From assembly GCF_024700885.2 (NCBI RefSeq), contig NZ_CP117016.1: DNA of 64,000 nucleotides; one strand, 5' to 3'. The position numbers and the translations under genes are program-made. Below the pieces are notes generated by a model. The model was given only the letters and a program-made list of their open reading frames with translations, ran no database searches and was not told where the DNA came from. This document shows positions 51,677-58,800 of this stretch, one piece after another (the stretch's first letter is position 1; every line of letters starts with the position of its first letter). Origin of the DNA: Escherichia coli. Its GTDB lineage: Bacteria > Pseudomonadota > Gammaproteobacteria > Enterobacterales > Enterobacteriaceae.

Positions 51677-53249
<1,573 letters not shown>

Positions 53250-53297
53250 TGAAATTCCTGAGAGAATAGTGGACACCAAATATGGTGGACGCTATCC

Positions 53298-53702
53298 ATG
53301 AAATCATTAACCGCAGTGCGTAAAAAAAGCCCTAATTATCCCGTTGAGTTCAAAATCAAAATGGTTGAACTCTCGCATCGACCAGAGATCTCCGTAGCGC
53401 AACTCGCTCGTGAGCATGGGATCAACGATAATTTGCTGTTCAAGTGGCGCCAGTACTGGCGCGAAGGAAAACTACGTCCTCCTTCAACAACAGAAAACAA
53501 CGTGCCTGAGCTGCTCCCGATAACACTTGATGCCGAAGATGTTGTCCCTACAACCTCCCCCCGGTCACAACCTGTAGCTGCTGCGACACCTGAATCACTC
53601 AATATCAGCTGTGAAGTGACGTTCCGGCACGGATCACTCCGTCTGAATGGTGCCATCAGCGAAAATATCCTGAACCTGCTGATACGGGAGCTCAAACGTT
53701 GA
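53298..53702 (+). CDS. IS66-family TnpA (HTH)
   Basis: 134 aa with VAQLAREHGINDNLLFKWRQ. Confidence 0.85.
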   Translation: MKSLTAVRKKSPNYPVEFKIKMVELSHRPEISVAQLAREHGINDNLLFKWRQYWREGKLRPPSTTENNVPELLPITLDAEDVVPTTSPRSQPVAAATPESLNISCEVTFRHGSLRLNGAISENILNLLIRELKR

Positions 53703-54046
53703 TCCCATTACCATCAGGGACAAAGATCTGGCTGGTCGCTGGCATCACCGATATGAGAAACGGCTTCAACGGCCTGGCGGCAAAGGTGCAGACGACGCTG
53801 AAAGACGATCCGATGTCAGGTCACGTTTTTATCTTCCGTGGGCGTAATGGCAGTCAGGTAAAGCTCCTCTGGTCTACCGGCGATGGACTGTGTCTGCTGA
53901 CCAAACGGCTGGAGCGCGGCCGCTTCGCCTGGCCGTCAGCCCGGGATGGCAAAGTGTTCCTCACACCGGCACAGCTGGCGATGCTGCTGGAAGGTATCGA
54001 CTGGCGGCAGCCTAAAAGACTACTTACGTCCCTGACTATGTTGTAA
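53699..54046 (+). CDS. IS66-family TnpB
   Basis: 115 aa starting MIPLPSGTKIWLVAGITDMRNGFNGLAAKV. Overlaps the tnpA stop (ATGA). Confidence 0.88.
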   Translation: MIPLPSGTKIWLVAGITDMRNGFNGLAAKVQTTLKDDPMSGHVFIFRGRNGSQVKLLWSTGDGLCLLTKRLERGRFAWPSARDGKVFLTPAQLAMLLEGIDWRQPKRLLTSLTML

Positions 54047-54094: not shown

Positions 54095-55445
54095 ATGAGC
54101 AGCTCACTTCCTGACGATATCAATGCACTGAAACGTCTCCTTGCCGAACAGGAGGCGCTGAACCGTGCCCTGCAGGAAAAGCTGAACGAGCGTGAACGCG
54201 AAATAGACCATCTGCAGGCACAGCTGGATAAGCTGCGCCGGATGAACTTCGGCAGCCGCTCGGAAAAAGTCTCCCGTCGTATCGCACAGATGGAAGCTGA
54301 CCTGAAGGCACTTCAGAAAGAAAGTGATACCCTTACCGGTCGGGTTGACGACCCGGCCGTGCAGCGCCCGCTGCGTCAAACCCGCACCCGCAAACCGTTC
54401 CCCGAATCACTCCCCCGCGATGAAAAACGGCTGCTGCCGGCAGCGTCATGCTGCCCGGAATGTGGAGGCTCGCTGAGCTATCTGGGTGAGGATGCCGCCG
54501 AACAGCTGGAGTTGATGCGCAGCGCCTTCCGGGTTATCCGGACTGTACGTGAAAAGCATGCCTGTACTCAGTGCGATGCCATCGTGCAGGCCCCCGCGCC
54601 TTCACGGCCCATCGAGCGGGGTATCGCAGGACCGGGGCTGCTGGCCCGCGTGCTGATCTCAAAGTATGCAGAGCACACCCCGCTGTACCGCCAGTCTGAA
54701 ATGTACGGCCGCCAGGGCGTGGAGCTGAGTCGTTCACTGCTGTCGGGCTGGGTGGATGCATGCTGCCGGCTACTGTCACCGCTGGAAGAAGCGCTTCAGG
54801 ACTATGTGCTGACTGACGGTAAGCTCCATGCTGATGACACGCCTGTCCCGGTGCTGTTGCCAGGCAATAAGAAAACGAAGACCGGGCGGTTATGGACCTA
54901 CGTTCGTGACGACCGTAACGCCGGGTCAACGCTGGCGCCGGCGGTGTGGTTCGCTTACAGCCCGGACAGAAAAGGCATCCATCCGCAGACCCATCTTGCG
55001 GGGTTCAGTGGTGTACTGCAGGCGGATGCATACGCCGGGTTCAACGAGCTGTACCGGGATGGCCGGATAACGGAAGCCGCCTGTTGGGCTCACGCCCGCC
55101 GTAAAATCCACGATGTGCACGTTCGCACCCCGTCAGCCCTGACGGAGGAAGCGCTGAAACGGATCGGCGAACTGTACGCCATCGAGGCAGAGATAAGGGG
55201 AATGACGGCGGAGCAGCGCCTTGCCGAACGTCAGTTGAAAACGAAACCGCTGCTGAAATCCCTGGAAAGCTGGCTGCGTGAAAAGATGAAAACCCTGTCG
55301 CGACACTCAGAACTGGCGAAAGCGTTCGCATACGCCCTGAACCAGTGGCCGGCGCTGACGTACTATGCAGATGATGGCTGGGCTGAGGCGGACAATAACA
55401 TCGCTGAAAATGCGTTGCGGATGGTCAGTCTGGGCCGCAAAAACT
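54095..55445 (+). pseudogene. IS66-family TnpC (DDE transposase), interrupted at codon approximately 451
   Basis: Leucine zipper and CPECGG zinc motif. It reads ...MVSLGRKN and then enters the inserted IS. The remainder resumes at 56892. Confidence 0.88.
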
Positions 55446-55696
55446 CTTATGACCTTTGTCAAATATTAAGCCCAAAAAGACCTACGCAGCTCCGGGAGCT
55501 TCGTTATATCGCGGATTAAAGAACCTGAAACAGTCAGACTGTATCTTGGATTTTACAAACTCTTATTCGGGGATTTTAGCCCCATGACGATTTACGCAGT
55601 GAGCTGGCCTCTTTCTACGTGCAGGTATTAGCGCATTCTGGCTTCCCTGAATTCTTTTTCGAGGATCACTCATTCCGTGTCTGACTGCTTCAGGGT
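55446..55696 (-). ncRNA. candidate bridge/seek RNA region of the IS110-family element (251-nt non-coding 3' arm)
   Basis: The IS has only 59 nt upstream of its recombinase but 251 nt downstream. IS110/IS1111 elements are known to encode a guide RNA in their long non-coding end. The RNA ends are not determined. Confidence 0.45.
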
Positions 55697-56830
55697 TTAA
55701 TTTTGCTTCTGCTGACTGAATGATGATTGGGCAGCAAGTGCAATATCCCACATAAATCCAGTCAACTCACGAGCCACCGCCGTAATGGCTACTTGTGATT
55801 TTTTCCCTTTTGCTGTCAGAGTTCGGTAACGAGAACACAATCGTTGTTGAGCTTTCCATGCAATATCTTTGGAATATTGTGTTACAGAGTCCGGTCGGTA
55901 ATATATAAGCCATGCACCAACTTTTGCAGGTGTACGATAAGACCAGGCGGCTTCGTAAAGCAGACGTCTCAGTTCGCTGTTTCCAACTTTTGTTATTCCT
56001 CTGGGACGAATACTGTTTCCACTGGAATATTCACCTGGCACCAGTCCCAGAAAAGCCATGAGCTGTTTGGGATTGGAAAATCGCGAAAAATCACCCAGTT
56101 CAGCAACCAGGGTTATTGCAATTAGCTGACCAACACCTTTTAGAGCCTGCAACTGGCAGACCAGATTGCACAGAGACCACTCAGGTAACAGGCGAGATAT
56201 TTCCTGGTCGAGTTGAAGTATGCGATCTTCAATCTGCTCCAGACTTTGACAATAGTGTTGAAAAGCAATCTGCTGAGATGGCTGACTAAATGATTGATTA
56301 GCTAACCAGGTTCGATGTTTGCCGGTCCAGTGCTTCCCTGCATAACGTTTGTCTGTTCGCAATAGCATGCTCAGAATTCGCTGTCGGGCAACTCTGCTGT
56401 CTCGTTTAGCTGCTGCACGGGCTCTGATTAGATCCCGCATAGCTTCATGAGTCAGGTCAGGGATCCAGACAGGGGTAAGTTCACCAGCCCGCAGTAACCT
56501 GGCAAGAGAAATTGCGTCCCGATGATCATTTTTGATTCTGTCTGTCGGTGATTTTGGTATCCGGGAAGGGGCAATAACCTGGAATTTTATATTCATCGCT
56601 GTGAGTTGATGATATAGCCCAAAACCACAGGGGCCAGCCTCATAGCAGGAAAGAATGTTTCCGTAAAGTCCCTGCAATTTCTGAAATAATCGACGTACAG
56701 CCTGGGCTTCGTTGTTAATCGTACCATAATAACGAACTTCGCCAAGCCGTTCAGGTGCAGCAATAGCAACCGCCAACGTTTCTTTATGTACATCCAGCCC
56801 GATGTAAGCTGCAATATTTTCCGAATGCAT
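55697..56830 (-). CDS. IS110-family DEDD recombinase/transposase
   Basis: 377 aa with the N-terminal YIGLDVHKETLAVAI (DEDD RuvC-like) and C-terminal Tnp_20 region GVGQLIAITLVAELGDFSRF...SGNS. Confidence 0.9.
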   Translation of the reverse strand: MHSENIAAYIGLDVHKETLAVAIAAPERLGEVRYYGTINNEAQAVRRLFQKLQGLYGNILSCYEAGPCGFGLYHQLTAMNIKFQVIAPSRIPKSPTDRIKNDHRDAISLARLLRAGELTPVWIPDLTHEAMRDLIRARAAAKRDSRVARQRILSMLLRTDKRYAGKHWTGKHRTWLANQSFSQPSQQIAFQHYCQSLEQIEDRILQLDQEISRLLPEWSLCNLVCQLQALKGVGQLIAITLVAELGDFSRFSNPKQLMAFLGLVPGEYSSGNSIRPRGITKVGNSELRRLLYEAAWSYRTPAKVGAWLIYYRPDSVTQYSKDIAWKAQQRLCSRYRTLTAKGKKSQVAITAVARELTGFMWDIALAAQSSFSQQKQN

Positions 56831-56891
56831 AATGACCTCCTCTGGAATATCCCACCAATGCTATAGTGAGTATATAAAGGTCATACCATCT

Positions 56892-57079
56892 ACCTGTTCT
56901 TCGGTTCGGATCATGGAGGAGAGCGGGGAGCGCTGCTGTACAGCCTGATCGGGACGTGCAAACTGAACGGAGTGGAGCCAGAAAGCTACCTCCGCTATGT
57001 CCTTGACGTCATAGCCGACTGGCCGATAAACCGGGTCGGCGAACTGCTCCCCTGGCGCGTAGCACTGCCGACTGAATAA
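56892..57079 (+). pseudogene. C-terminal remainder of the interrupted IS66 TnpC
   Basis: (Y)LFFGSDHGGERGALLYSLIGTCKLNGVEPESYLRYVLDVIADWPINRVGELLPWRVALPTE*. Confidence 0.88.
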
Positions 57080-57116
57080 CACATCCCCGTCAATACGGTT
57101 CTTGCTGCACGCTTAC

Positions 57117-57768
57117 AGTTCGTAAACGTCCGATAGCGATGATCTGAAGTGCACTATTTGCAGCACGCTCCCCACCCCGATTAAGTCGGTAACGGTTCAT
57201 TTTTTTAGAAGATACGGTAACCGAGTTGACACCACACAGCACCGCAAAACCTGATTCTATTCTTAGCCGTTGGGGATTATCTCCGGCAGTGATGAGCAAC
57301 TGCGAAGCGCTTTCGTATCCAACAGCATTACGTTTAATCAGTTCAGGTGCCAGTTCATCGACAATTGCCGCAATCATGACATCAAGGTCGGCGATTTCAT
57401 CATGTAACTCGAAATAGCGTCAGGCAAGTGATTTCAATGCAATGCGATAAACGTTGGTAACATTACGATATTCACTGGCACTAGGCTTCCAGGATCCCGG
57501 AGTCCTGATAAGTTGCATACGTGTCATATTTCTGAGTGGTTCGCGTAATTCATCCGGTGCAGAGATAATATAGGAATGGATAATCTGGAGAGCGACTCTG
57601 CAGGCTGATATTGCGGTTTTGCGGCAAGTTTTTGGCATCCGCTTCTACGCCAAATACCTGAAGTAGGAATGGATGCGTTAGCAGCATACATCCGGATCTG
57701 CGCGGGGAATAGCCGGAAACGGCTATCCCTACCACAATAGCTAACTTTGTAATAGTGCCCTTTTAGGC
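57117..57768 (-). pseudogene. remnant of a second, different IS110-family transposase
   Basis: The minus strand reads ...ALKSLA*RYFELHDEIADLDVMIAAIVDELAPELI...GDNPQRLR.ESGFAVLCGV..V.SSKKMNRYRLNRGGERAANSAL. It has an in-frame stop at 57417-57419 and its C-terminus is cut at the IS66 end. Confidence 0.65.
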
Positions 57769-58800
57769 TCATGTACTCTGACGTAATTCTATCTGGTAGT
57801 TGAATTGCACGATACGCGACTCTTCTGATTCATCATGATTATTATTCAATAGCCCAATCAGTAACTTACCCGTCTCTATCCCCATTTTTTTGTAGTCAAT
57901 ACGGATGGATGTCAAGGTTGGGTGTGTTTGATCGCAATTGTCTGAACCATCAAGACAAGCTACAGCGATATTTTCAGGAATTTTTAACAAACGCCGCTGG
58001 CACTCAAACATGATACCCAGCGCAATCTCTTCGTGGCTGCAAATCACAGCATCCAGCTCTGGTTGTCGCAGTAATATCTCGTTTAATGCGTAACGCCCCA
58101 ATTGCAGACTTGCGGCATCCGGCATGGTGATAACAAGATCAGAGTTCTGGTAATGGCTCAACATTGCTTTATGCCAGCCGTTCAGTTGCTGACGTTGCAG
58201 GCGGTTGTCCATATGCGCACCGATAAATCCGATATTCTTATAACCCTGTTCCAGCAGATGTTCGGTCAGTTTATGTGATGCTTCAAAAAATGCTGTTTCG
58301 ATGGTAATTTGAGCCGGACTGAAAGGGGAACCGACAACGTTAATGGTAGGTATATTTGTTTTCTCGAGTATCTGGTGAGTTTTATCAGCCAACTGAGAAC
58401 CAAAAATAACTAACGCCGCCGGGTTGCCTTGAAGAAGCGTCATCAGAATTTCAGCTTCTTTGAGCTGATTATACTCATGACACCCAAGCAGTAGCTGGAA
58501 TTCATTTTTATTAAGCACCTGCTGCAACGACTGCATAAAGCGGGAGCTGGCTTTATCTGTCAGGGAAGGAACCAGTACGGCGACTGTATCACTGTGACCA
58601 GATGCAAGGGCGCCAGCAGTTCTGTTGGGAATATAACCCAACTCTTCTACGGCCTGTTCTATCTTTTCCCTCAGCTTGTCAGATACCTGTTCCGGTGTTC
58701 TCAGCGCACGGGAAACGGTCATGGTTCCGACACCTGCAAAGTTAGCGACCTCCTGCAGCGTCACCCGTCCGGTACCACGGCGCTTACGTGTTTTTTCCAT
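57769..58800 (-). CDS. LacI-family transcriptional regulator
   Basis: 343 aa with the HTH VTLQEVANFAGVGTMTVSRALR and a periplasmic-binding-like effector domain. Confidence 0.9.
   Translation of the reverse strand: MEKTRKRRGTGRVTLQEVANFAGVGTMTVSRALRTPEQVSDKLREKIEQAVEELGYIPNRTAGALASGHSDTVAVLVPSLTDKASSRFMQSLQQVLNKNEFQLLLGCHEYNQLKEAEILMTLLQGNPAALVIFGSQLADKTHQILEKTNIPTINVVGSPFSPAQITIETAFFEASHKLTEHLLEQGYKNIGFIGAHMDNRLQRQQLNGWHKAMLSHYQNSDLVITMPDAASLQLGRYALNEILLRQPELDAVICSHEEIALGIMFECQRRLLKIPENIAVACLDGSDNCDQTHPTLTSIRIDYKKMGIETGKLLIGLLNNNHDESEESRIVQFNYQIELRQST

What the first reader, a model, noticed from the sequence alone, without database searches (positions are those of the whole stretch)
55446..55696. 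Likely bridge/seek-RNA-encoding arm of the IS110-family element, with its natural target preserved in cis
**Architecture.** The element has 59 nt of non-coding DNA 5' of its DEDD recombinase and 251 nt 3' of it. This asymmetry is the one described for the IS1111-like branch, where the guide RNA lies downstream of the recombinase.

**Target.** Because the element interrupts a gene of known sequence, the target can be reconstructed unambiguously as GGCCGCAAAAA-CT-ACCTGTTCTTCGG. The CT core is duplicated at both junctions.

**Possible guide.** Within the arm, 55470-55485 reads GCCCAAAAAGACCTAC. This resembles the target GCCGCAAAAACTACCT. It could be a guide segment or it could be chance.

**Value.** The copy offers a ready donor/target/RNA triplet for studying programmable recombination. 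The target lies inside IS66 transposases, so this IS may preferentially parasitise another IS family.
Basis: partly seen in the sequence, partly recalled or inferred. Interest (0 to 1): 0.6.

Follow-up and report, generated by a model that had tools for sequence, protein, structure and literature searches.

The report
ISEc45 guide-RNA arm inside IS66
The 251-base tail of this mobile element (ISEc45) very probably encodes the guide RNA that steers it into one conserved spot of another mobile element's gene, but this kind of RNA, and its presence in ISEc45, were already published, so the case is instructive rather than new.

Summary
ISEc45 (IS110 family, IS1111 group) lies on the minus strand at 55446-56889. 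It has 59 nt before and 251 nt after its DEDD recombinase gene. It splits the tnpC gene of ISEc22 (IS66 family) at the GRKN|YLF codons, with CT at both junctions.

The arm holds a structured RNA of about 171 nt (55524-55694). A covariance model finds this RNA just 3' of the recombinase gene in 77 of 80 relatives.

Two loops covary with DNA across 46 elements:
- The target loop is at 55650-55660 and 55612-55621.
- The donor loop is at 55586-55591 and 55558-55566.

The layout matches the IS621 bridge RNA and the ISEc11 seekRNA.

The site in this window is near-cognate. The perfect site, GAACACGT-AA-TTCTTTTT (element orientation), is another IS66 variant.

At least 12 relatives, from Proteobacteria and Planctomycetota, sit at the same IS66 codons. 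Others sit in IS256, IS3-type and IS6 transposase genes.

Durrant et al. 2024 already list ISEc45 with a bridge RNA in its right end. No RNA expression data exist here. Interest is low to moderate.

The parts
55446..56889 (-). ISEc45 element, 1444 bp without the shared core dinucleotide
   Evidence: The same 1446-nt stretch is annotated 'IS110-like element ISEc45 family transposase' in RefSeq E. coli genomes; 624 records hold a copy covering at least 80%. Ends are defined by the junctions with ISEc22 tnpC.
55697..56830 (-). DEDD recombinase (transposase) gene, 377 aa
   Evidence: ORF. Pfam PF01548 at 2.3e-15 and PF02371 at 6.4e-24. It contains GLVPGEYSSG, which fits the IS1111-type GL-P----S(T)G motif described in PMC11187229.
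56831..56889 (-). Left end, 59 nt. It includes subterminal inverted repeat L (TATGACCTTT, 56885..56876) and the ribosome-binding site.
55524..55694 (-). Predicted bridge/long-seek RNA, about 171 nt, closed by the 16-bp helix P1 (55694..55679 pairs with 55539..55524)
   Evidence: MFE of the 180-nt stretch is -56.6 kcal/mol, z = -4.5, 0 of 200 shuffles as stable. The P1 helix is present in relatives with different sequence: cognate duplex -46 vs non-cognate -25 kcal/mol, 0 of 5000 permutations. The covariance model hits 55544-55679 at 107 bits, E 1e-30.
55650..55660 (-). Target-binding loop, 5' strand: G-AAAAAGAA-UU. It pairs with the antisense strand of tnpC (5'-AR-TTCTTTTT-3'). This is the LTG in IS621 terms, with tnpC sense as top strand.
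   Evidence: Matches the flank next to the right end in relatives: cognate 5.30/7 vs non-cognate 3.94, 0 of 5000 permutations. 10/10 Watson-Crick pairs at the L087 site. 5 Watson-Crick plus 2 wobble pairs at the site in this window.
55612..55621 (-). Target-binding loop, 3' strand: CACGU-AG-AAA. It pairs with the tnpC sense strand 5'-CT-ACGTG-3' (RTG plus core). The following A matches the first base of the left end (handshake-like).
   Evidence: Fixed register, always 3 nt before helix P3. Cognate 3.92/6 vs 2.24, 0 of 5000 permutations. The E. coli variant L092 has CAUAU next to a CATAA flank.
55622..55649 (-). Apical hairpin P4 between the two strands of the target loop
   Evidence: MFE. The sequence is variable but the hairpin is kept in relatives.
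55586..55591 (-). Donor-binding loop, 5' strand: AUCGUC. It pairs with 5'-G-ATGGT-3' (core G plus the first 5 nt of the left end), using two wobble pairs.
   Evidence: Relatives with left end ATGGT have ACCAU(C), ATGAT have AUCAU, ACC.. have GGUC. Cognate 3.89/5 vs 3.37, 0 of 5000 permutations. This is the weakest of the four guide assignments.
55568..55584 (-). Hairpin P5 (UGGGG-7 nt-CCCCG) inside the donor loop
   Evidence: 98.6% of cells paired, and 3 of 5 pairs show compensatory changes.
55558..55566 (-). Donor-binding loop, 3' strand: AUAAG-AG-UU. It has the same sense as the right end tip ATAAG plus core AG. The UU matches the first target bases beyond the core (handshake-like).
   Evidence: The RNA pentamer equals the last 5 nt of the right end in 36 of 46 elements, across six different pentamers (ATAAG, ATGAG, ATCAG, ATCGG, ATAGG, ATTAG). 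The next base equals the first target base in 32 of 46 (permuted mean 18.8, 0 of 5000).
55463..55523 (-). Non-conserved tail with a small hairpin.
   Evidence: Not alignable among relatives. No enrichment of target matches: cognate 6.80 vs non-cognate 6.88, and 4062 of 5000 permutations score as high. No terminator-like site.
55448..55462 (-). TTGACA (55462..55457), overlapping by one base subterminal inverted repeat R (AAAGGTCATA, 55457..55448). TTGACA is the probable -35 box of the promoter formed at the circle junction.
   Evidence: A TTGACA-like hexamer (at least 5/6) lies at the same distance from the right end tip in 32 of 46 relatives. After joining the ends, 17 nt downstream lies xATGAx from the left repeat. 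Junction promoters are described for ISEc11 and ISEc21 in PMC11187229.
55444..55445 (+). Core CT at the junction with the 5' part of tnpC
56890..56891 (+). Core CT at the junction with the 3' part of tnpC
54095..55445 (+). ISEc22 (IS66 family) tnpC, 5' part, ending ...SLGRKN
56892..57079 (+). ISEc22 tnpC, 3' part, starting (Y)LFFGSDHGG
   Evidence: The restored protein matches Pfam DDE_Tnp_IS66 and DDE_Tnp_IS66_C.

Best explanation
The arm is the right end of ISEc45, an IS1111-group member of the IS110 family. It encodes an RNA of about 171 nt that guides the element's recombinase.

**Fold.** The RNA forms a long closing helix that holds two arms.
- Arm 1 carries an internal loop that reads the target. 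Its 5' strand (AAAAAGAA-UU) pairs with one DNA strand on one side of the CT core. Its 3' strand (CACGU-AG) pairs with the other DNA strand on the other side.
- Arm 2 carries a loop around a GGGG/CCCC hairpin that reads the joined ends of the excised circular element in the same two-strand way (AUCGUC and AUAAG-AG).

**Reaction.** The recombinase then exchanges strands at the core. The element lands in one orientation at the G(R/K)KN|(Y/W)(L/V)F codons of IS66-family tnpC genes and inactivates that element.

**Shown here.** The RNA motif, its structural covariation, and the covariation of all four loop strands with flanks and ends.

**Inferred from IS621 and ISEc11 work.** That the RNA is made (probably from the promoter formed at the circle junction), that it binds the recombinase, and that it directs the chemistry.
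For: 1. **Conserved RNA.** A covariance model built from 16 relatives finds one full-length match just 3' of the recombinase gene in 77 of 80 loci (48-76% protein identity). It finds one match in the window, at 55544-55679 on the minus strand, 107 bits.
2. **Structure.** 95.3% of cells are paired, against at most 61% in slid controls. 12 of 14 pairs show compensatory changes, and 0 of 500 shuffles reach this. The closing helix pairs far better with its own partner than with others' (-46 vs -25 kcal/mol, 0 of 5000). The fold has z = -4.5.
3. **Target loop.** Both strands match the flanking DNA of their own element better than the flanks of others, with 0 of 5000 permutations for each strand.
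   - Clear retargeting: L078 has flanks TAT-AG/AG-CTTAG with RNA UAU-AG and UAAG-CU. L021 has an 11-nt perfect match. L012, L015, L026, L032, L038 and L066 also follow.
   - Sister contrasts: L003 pairs AAGAA with TTCTT, and L005 pairs AAAAA with TTTTT. L001, L002, L011 and L013 pair GGU, ACC, GGU and GCC with GAT, ACC, GGT and GCC.
   - The E. coli variant L092 pairs CAUAU with a CATAA flank.
4. **Donor loop.** The 3' strand equals the last 5 nt of the right end in 36 of 46 elements, across six different pentamers. The 5' strand follows the left end, ATGG vs ACC types.
5. **Same logic as IS621.**
   - In the tnpC-sense frame the core is CT.
   - The guide that pairs with the bottom strand lies 5' and the one that pairs with the top strand lies 3'.
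   - There is a one-base handshake-like signal.
6. **Same layout as ISEc11.** The experimentally validated ISEc11 seekRNA region has CAGUAUUUU, a hairpin, then GUGAAAAUA inside a stem, for the target GTGAAAATACTG.
7. **Published listing.** ISEc45 is listed with a bridge RNA in its right end.
Against: - No expression, binding or transposition data exist for ISEc45. None can be obtained with these tools.
- The alignment used for the pair counts was fitted to the model.
- The permutation tests do not remove shared ancestry.
- My model does not detect the ISEc11 RNA (best 8 bits, outside that element). The link to validated RNAs therefore rests on layout, not on sequence homology.
- Rfam has no matching family.
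- In ISEc45 itself the AUCGUC guide needs two wobble pairs.
- The site in this window has mismatches to the target loop.
- In ISEc11 a short RNA holding the target matches alone was enough, and more efficient than the long form (42% vs 15.7%; source data). The donor-loop role may therefore be dispensable in this group.
Confidence: 0.85

Rival explanations
1. SeekRNA-only reading. Only the first hairpin (about 55600-55672, roughly 73 nt) acts as a guide, and it reads the target. The donor ends are found through the target-derived flanks and through protein recognition of the subterminal inverted repeats. The second arm is then only a scaffold.
For: In ISEc11 an 82-nt RNA holding the two target matches supported transposition better than the 154-nt form. 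Target-derived flanks on the donor were also required. The 5'-strand donor match in ISEc45 is weak, with two wobbles.
Against: The 3' strand of the second loop copies the right-end tip through six different pentamers (36 of 46 exact). The next base tracks the target (32 of 46, 0 of 5000 permutations). A mere scaffold would not be expected to do either.
Confidence: 0.12
2. The guide is the segment the first reader proposed, 55470-55485 (RNA GUAGGUCUUUUUGGGC).
For: It aligns with the target with two gaps and one mismatch, score 15.
Against: 385 of 1000 dinucleotide shuffles score as high. The tail is not conserved. In 46 relatives the tail matches its own target no better than others' (6.80 vs 6.88; 4062 of 5000 permutations as high). 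The segment lies outside the covariance-model match.
Confidence: 0.01
3. The arm makes no functional RNA. It would be only a 3' untranslated region, or a terminator, or protein-binding end DNA, or it would encode the 62-aa overlapping ORF at 55563..55751.
For: The inverted repeat and the TTGACA box do occupy its last 15 nt. An ORF of 62 aa is listed.
Against: Compensatory base-pair changes and loop-to-DNA covariation point to constraint at the RNA level. No terminator-like site is found in the arm. The conserved part is internal rather than at the tip.
Confidence: 0.02

Closest known systems
IS621 bridge RNA (IS110 group; Durrant et al. 2024, PMC11208160; Hiraizumi et al. 2024, PMC11208158)
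   Same: - Both have two loops, one for the target and one for the donor.
- In each loop one strand pairs with the bottom DNA strand left of the core and the other with the top strand right of the core. Both include the core.
- The core is CT.
- A handshake-like base follows the top-strand guides.
- Both use a DEDD recombinase with a Transposase_20 domain.
   Different: - Here the RNA lies 3' of the recombinase gene in the right end, not 5' in the left end.
- The whole RNA/gene module is inverted relative to the CT-defined target frame.
- The donor loop surrounds a small hairpin within a multiloop closed by a 16-bp helix, rather than being a simple internal loop.
- The element has 10-bp subterminal inverted repeats, against 2-3 bp in IS621.
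- There is no detectable sequence similarity.
seekRNAs of the IS1111-family elements ISEc11, ISPa11 and ISKpn4 (Siddiquee et al. 2024, PMC11187229)
   Same: - The non-coding region is downstream of the gene.
- Subterminal inverted repeats are present.
- The top-strand match lies 5' of the bottom-strand match, and the two overlap at the insertion point.
- In ISEc11 the two matches flank an apical hairpin inside a stem, exactly as in my ISEc45 model.
- The sizes of the first hairpin (about 73 nt) and the whole RNA (about 171 nt) resemble their short (82 nt) and long (154 nt) RNAs.
   Different: - The recombinase has 377 aa, against 330-350 aa for their IS1111 core group, and is only about 15-25% identical to the ISfinder elements in their identity table.
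- My covariance model does not detect the ISEc11 RNA.
- The target is a protein-coding motif of IS66 tnpC, not their sites.
[quoted passage not shown]
   Same: It is an RNA-guided IS whose natural target is a conserved coding motif of another IS family's transposase.
   Different: It belongs to a different subgroup, with an upstream non-coding region and the reverse guide order. Its victim family and motif also differ.
[quoted passage not shown]
   Same: They are IS1111-group elements specialised on a sequence that belongs to another mobile element (reference list).
   Different: Their target is a non-coding terminal repeat, not a coding motif. I did not analyse them here.

Membership tests
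IS110 family, IS1111 group | DEDD (RuvC-like) N-terminal domain plus a C-terminal Transposase_20 domain | tested here: met
   PF01548 at 2.3e-15 and PF02371 at 6.4e-24
IS110 family, IS1111 group | Subterminal inverted repeats of 7-17 bp | tested here: met
   10 bp, TATGACCTTT / AAAGGTCATA, set 4 nt and 2 nt from the tips. The repeats covary in relatives as ..CCTT/AAGG....CCAT/ATGG.. and ..CCGT/ACGG...
IS110 family, IS1111 group | The long non-coding region lies downstream of the recombinase gene and the left end is short | tested here: met
   251 nt vs 59 nt. The pattern is described.
IS110 family, IS1111 group | GL-P----S(T)G motif in the C-terminal domain (PMC11187229) | tested here: met
   GLVPGEYSSG in the 377-aa protein. 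The motif is quoted.
IS110 family, IS1111 group | Recombinase length of 330-350 aa, typical of the tight IS1111 cluster | tested here: not met
   377 aa here, and relatives have about 366-380 aa. This is a typical range rather than a defining rule. Durrant et al. nevertheless class ISEc45 as IS1111.
IS110 family, IS1111 group | Site-specific, orientation-specific insertion without a true target duplication (shared core only) | tested here: met
   The same codons and the same orientation are seen in E. coli copies and in at least 12 relatives in other species. Removing one CT restores the target exactly.
Bridge RNA / seekRNA | A conserved structured RNA motif in the long non-coding end | tested here: met
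Bridge RNA / seekRNA | A loop whose two strands are complementary to opposite strands of the target on either side of the core, and which covary with the target | tested here: met
   retargeted relatives are listed in the report
Bridge RNA / seekRNA | A second loop complementary to the donor (joined ends), covarying with them (bridge RNA sense) | tested here: met
   The 3' strand is strong (36 of 46 exact, six pentamers). The 5' strand is weaker (3.89 vs 3.37 of 5).
Bridge RNA / seekRNA | In IS1111 elements the top-strand match lies 5' of the bottom-strand match | tested here: met
   In element orientation, the 5' strand pairs with the top strand and the 3' strand with the bottom strand. The rule is quoted.
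Bridge RNA / seekRNA | A match to the published bridge-RNA covariance models | not testable with these tools
   The models are not held here. Rfam 15 gave no relevant hit. The authors' own table reports a detection in the right end of ISEc45.
Bridge RNA / seekRNA | The RNA is transcribed, co-purifies with the recombinase, and is required for circle formation and insertion | not testable with these tools
   No expression or biochemical data. No sigma-70-like promoter is found in the linear element. A junction promoter is inferred.

The most novel reading that the evidence does not exclude
ISEc45 belongs to an old lineage of RNA-guided elements that live as parasites of other insertion sequences.
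- One branch has kept the same address, the G(R/K)KN|(W/Y)LF codons of IS66 tnpC, in at least 12 species of Gamma-, Beta- and Alphaproteobacteria and Planctomycetota.
- Sister branches have reprogrammed the same loop to conserved codons of IS256, IS3-type and IS6 transposases.

I found no paper describing this in the searchable library. ISfinder notes or subscription papers may already record it.
Probability: 0.5. Interest if true: 0.5.

Novelty: already known. Interest (0 to 1): 0.3.

Why it matters
The mechanism itself is established, so the main value is as a worked natural example. It gives a full map of an IS1111-type guide RNA: closing helix, target loop, donor loop and handshake base. 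Dozens of naturally reprogrammed relatives support the map.

The data also show how far natural sites may depart from the guide. The copy in this window tolerates one mismatch and two wobbles.

If the wider pattern holds, it shows a strategy for a mobile element: aim at an invariant coding motif of another, multicopy and horizontally mobile element. Such a site is a safe harbour that costs the host nothing and is present wherever the victim spreads. It also inactivates IS66 copies, which may matter for IS66 dynamics in E. coli.

For people who engineer these recombinases, the ISEc45 clade offers a diverse set of guide/target pairs from an IS1111 branch that has had little study.

Tried and rejected
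- **Rfam scan** of 54500-58000 at E up to 10 gave nothing relevant.
- **An intrinsic terminator or internal sigma-70 promoter** in the arm: none found.
- **Plain MAFFT plus RNAalifold** missed the closing helix and the apical hairpin, because their sequences are not alignable. I tested the closing helix with cognate versus non-cognate duplex energies instead.
- **Exact-protein look-up** returned mostly the same chromosomal insertion. It did not help to sample independent events, so I fetched lower-identity E. coli copies.
- **My covariance model on ISEc11** gave no significant hit. The comparison with the validated seekRNA therefore rests on layout only.
- **A fixed register for the 5' strand of the target loop** relative to helix P3 does not hold across relatives (off by one in L001). 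I scored the best register for cognate and non-cognate pairs alike.
- **My first guide labels** (left/right in element orientation) were the reverse of Durrant's once the CT-core frame is used. The labels printed must be read with that in mind (note).
- **Literature searches** for ISEc45 and for IS66 with IS1111 found no description of this target.

Full report
**1. What is there**

The window carries a nest of insertion sequences.
- An IS66-family element has tnpA at 53298-53702, tnpB at 53699-54046 and tnpC from 54095.
- Its tnpC is cut at 55445 by an element on the minus strand.
- That element encodes a 377-aa protein (56830..55697) with the DEDD_Tnp_IS110 and Transposase_20 domains.

RefSeq annotation calls the same 1446 nt ISEc45. 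624 E. coli records hold a copy covering at least 80%, and 1467 of 5426 genomes have some match.

In element orientation the sequence reads ...GAACAGGT-AG-ATGGTATGACCTTT...(gene)...AAAGGTCATAAG-AG-TTTTTGCGGCC. There are 59 nt before the gene and 251 nt after it. A perfect 10-bp subterminal inverted repeat is present.

Removing the element and one CT restores a 512-aa TnpC (...SLGRKNYLFFGSDHGG...). The restored 300 nt are 100% identical to intact ISEc22 copies, and 2685 E. coli records match at 99% identity or more.

**2. What was already published**

The short-5'/long-3' asymmetry and the subterminal repeats are the marks of the IS1111 group. In that group the guide RNA lies downstream of the recombinase gene (PMC11187229; PMC11208160).

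Durrant et al., Supplementary Table 5, lists 'ISEc45: Detected Bridge RNA End = RE; group IS1111'. Siddiquee et al. include ISEc45 only in their protein set.

I found no text giving its RNA structure, guides or target.

**3. The RNA**

Only positions 21-161 of the arm (counted from the stop codon) and its last 15-25 nt are conserved at DNA level in relatives. Positions 162-230 are not conserved.

I fetched 80 loci encoding relatives with 48-76% protein identity. From these I built a covariance model on 16 sequences.
- The model gives one full-length match just 3' of the gene in 77 of the 80 loci.
- It gives one match in the window, at 55544-55679 on the minus strand, 107 bits.
- On the resulting alignment 95.3% of cells are paired, against at most 61% when partners are slid.
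- 12 of 14 pairs show compensatory changes, and no shuffle of 500 reaches this. The alignment is fitted to the model, so these figures lean in its favour.

A long closing helix is not alignable by sequence but is present everywhere. The 5' and 3' segments of the same element pair at -46 kcal/mol on average, against -25 for segments of different elements (0 of 5000 permutations).

In ISEc45 this helix is 55694..55679 with 55539..55524. The 180-nt stretch folds at -56.6 kcal/mol, z = -4.5.

**4. The target loop**

Between helix P3 (CCUC/GAGG) and the apical hairpin P4 lies an internal loop.
- Its 3' strand always reads N5-6-AG-A-NN just before GAGG. The N5-6 copies the flank next to the left end (cognate 3.92 of 6 vs 2.24; 0 of 5000).
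- Its 5' strand is complementary to the core plus the flank next to the right end (5.30 of 7 vs 3.94; 0 of 5000).

Scores count a Watson-Crick pair as 1 and a wobble pair as 0.5.

Elements with quite different targets follow the rule:

| Locus | Flanks | RNA |
|---|---|---|
| L078 | TAT-AG / AG-CTTAG | UAU-AG and UAAG-CU |
| L021 | AA-TTCTCGACC | GGUCGAGAAUU (11 of 11) |
| L032 | AACA-AG / AG-TCGGG | AACA-AG and CCCGA-CU |
| L066 | AG-AGTCC | GGACU-CU |

Close relatives differ in step with their sites:
- L003 pairs AAGAA with TTCTT, and L005 pairs AAAAA with TTTTT.
- L002 pairs ACC with ACC.
- L011 pairs GGU with GGT, and L013 pairs GCC with GCC.

In ISEc45 the strands are G-AAAAAGAA-UU (55660..55650) and CACGU-AG-AAA (55621..55612).

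**5. The donor loop**

After the first arm comes a loop around the hairpin UGGGG...CCCCG (55584..55568).
- Its 3' strand, AUAAG-AG (55566..55560), copies the right end tip plus the core.
- Across 46 unique elements the RNA pentamer equals the last five bases of the right end in 36, through six different pentamers.
- Its 5' strand follows the left end. ATGGT pairs with ACCAU(C), ATGAT with AUCAU, and ACC.. with GGUC (3.89 of 5 vs 3.37; 0 of 5000).
- In ISEc45 this strand is AUCGUC (55591..55586). It pairs with G-ATGGT through two wobbles, and this is the weakest assignment.
- The base after the core in the 3' strand equals the first target base beyond the core in 32 of 46 elements (permuted mean 18.8; 0 of 5000).

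**6. Comparison with known systems**

Read in the tnpC-sense (window +) frame:
- The core is CT.
- The 5' strand of each loop pairs with the bottom strand to the left of the core.
- The 3' strand pairs with the top strand to the right of the core.
- A single handshake-like base follows.

This is the IS621 scheme, with the gene/RNA module inverted relative to the ends. In element orientation it gives the order 'top-strand match 5' of bottom-strand match' that Siddiquee et al. report for IS1111 elements.

I fetched ISEc11. Its essential downstream region reads, inside a stem, CAGUAUUUU, then a hairpin, then GUGAAAAUA. The published target is GTGAAAATACTG. The layout is the same as in my model.

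My covariance model does not detect the ISEc11 RNA, so this is a likeness of design and not a demonstrated homology.

**7.

The segment 55470-55485 lies in the non-conserved tail.
- Its gapped match to the target is equalled in 385 of 1000 shuffles.
- In relatives the tail matches its own target no better than others' (6.80 vs 6.88).

It is a chance match.

**8. The target**

The loop of ISEc45 fits GAACACGT-A(A/G)-TTCTTTTT perfectly, 7 + 10 nt. These are the codons G-K-K-N-Y-V-F of another IS66 variant. A copy sits exactly there on plasmid NZ_CP022914 (L087).

The site in this window (ISEc22, GAACAGGT-AG-TTTTTGCG) has one mismatch on one side. On the other side it has five Watson-Crick pairs plus two wobbles. 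It is therefore near-cognate.

All six further E. coli copies I fetched, and all listed junction hits, abut IS66-family tnpC genes (ISEc22, ISEc43, ISEc23), in at least three sequence contexts. One copy, L088, has an unrelated left flank, probably from a later rearrangement.

Variant L092 carries CAUAU next to a CATAA flank.

Relatives sit at the same codons, antisense to tnpC, in:
- Sodalis, Klebsiella, two Vibrio and two Nitrosomonas;
- Sphingomonas and other Alphaproteobacteria;
- the Planctomycetota Limnoglobus and Botrimarina.

More distant relatives sit elsewhere:
- in IS256 transposases, at AE|HW(K/D)H(L/V)RT (L039, L043, L052);
- in an rve-type transposase (L038);
- in an IS6/IS240 transposase (L009);
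- some in non-IS DNA.

Targeting another IS has precedent in ISEc21, which targets IS3-family transposases.

**9. Mechanism, and what is inferred**

*Shown:* the motif, its pairing, and the four loop-to-DNA relations.

*Inferred:*
- Transcription. No promoter-like site exists in the linear element. TTGACA lies at a fixed distance from the right tip in 32 of 46 elements. After circle formation it is 17 nt from xATGAx of the left repeat. Junction promoters are documented for ISEc11 and ISEc21.
- Binding of the RNA to the recombinase.
- Strand exchange at the core.

Where the two junction cores differ (9 of 46 elements, plus three E. coli copies), it is always AG at the left end and AA at the right end. 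In the CT frame the target's own core stays with the left target half. This fits top-strand cleavage 3' of the core as in IS621. It is an observation, not a test.

**10. Verdict**

The finding is real and its reading is right in outline. Its one concrete guide assignment is wrong, and the cis target is imperfect.

The kind of system is known, and ISEc45 is already listed as carrying it. The incremental points are the explicit map and the IS66 address shared across phyla.

Noticed in passing
Loci L001-L005, L007, L008, L011, L013, L018, L062 (junctions); L039, L043, L052; L038; L009: Relatives carrying the same RNA motif sit in conserved coding motifs of other IS transposases. IS66 G(R/K)KN|(W/Y)LF is hit in at least 12 species across Proteobacteria and Planctomycetota. 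IS256 AE|HW(K/D)H(L/V)RT, an rve-type transposase and an IS6/IS240 transposase are hit by other relatives.
   Followed up: partly
Junctions of L009, L011, L012, L013, L019, L021, L022, L043, L080 and of E. coli L087, L088, L090: When the two junction dinucleotides differ, it is always AG next to the left end and AA next to the right end, never the reverse (9 of 46 unique elements plus 3 E. coli copies). The target's core therefore stays on one fixed side.
   Followed up: partly
window 55558-55559 (UU after the donor-loop core) and the equivalent base in 46 relatives: The base after the core in the 3' strand of the donor loop tracks the first target base beyond the core (32 of 46; permuted mean 18.8). 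This resembles the position-7 handshake signal of IS621.
   Followed up: partly
window 55457-55462 with 56880-56885 after end joining: TTGACA lies at a fixed distance from the right tip (at least 5/6 in 32 of 46 relatives). In the circle it would sit 17 nt from TATGAC of the left repeat, a likely junction promoter. The -10 box of ISEc45 lacks the final T.
   Followed up: partly
locus L092 (NZ_CM142781.1), right-end arm: A 97.8%-identical ISEc45 variant has six differences clustered in the apical hairpin and the target-loop strand. They include CACGU to CAUAU, next to a CATAA flank.
   Followed up: partly
window 57090-57377 (-): A 95-aa ORF with a Transposase_20 (IS110 family) match at 8.2e-05. 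It is a fragment of a second, different IS110-family element just beyond the end of ISEc22 tnpC.
   Followed up: partly
window 51751-53252 (+): Broken IS21-type istA (rve, HTH) and truncated istB (IstB_IS21) reading frames lie upstream of the IS66 element. The region is a pile-up of IS remnants.
   Followed up: partly
window 57635-57744 (+): A weak match to the Moco (molybdenum cofactor) riboswitch model, 20.5 bits against a gathering score of 36, E 0.15. It is probably noise.
   Followed up: no
locus L088 (NZ_CP023533.1), left junction: This ISEc45 copy has an IS66 flank on the right-end side only. The left flank is unrelated sequence, which suggests a later deletion or rearrangement at the element's left end.
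   Followed up: no
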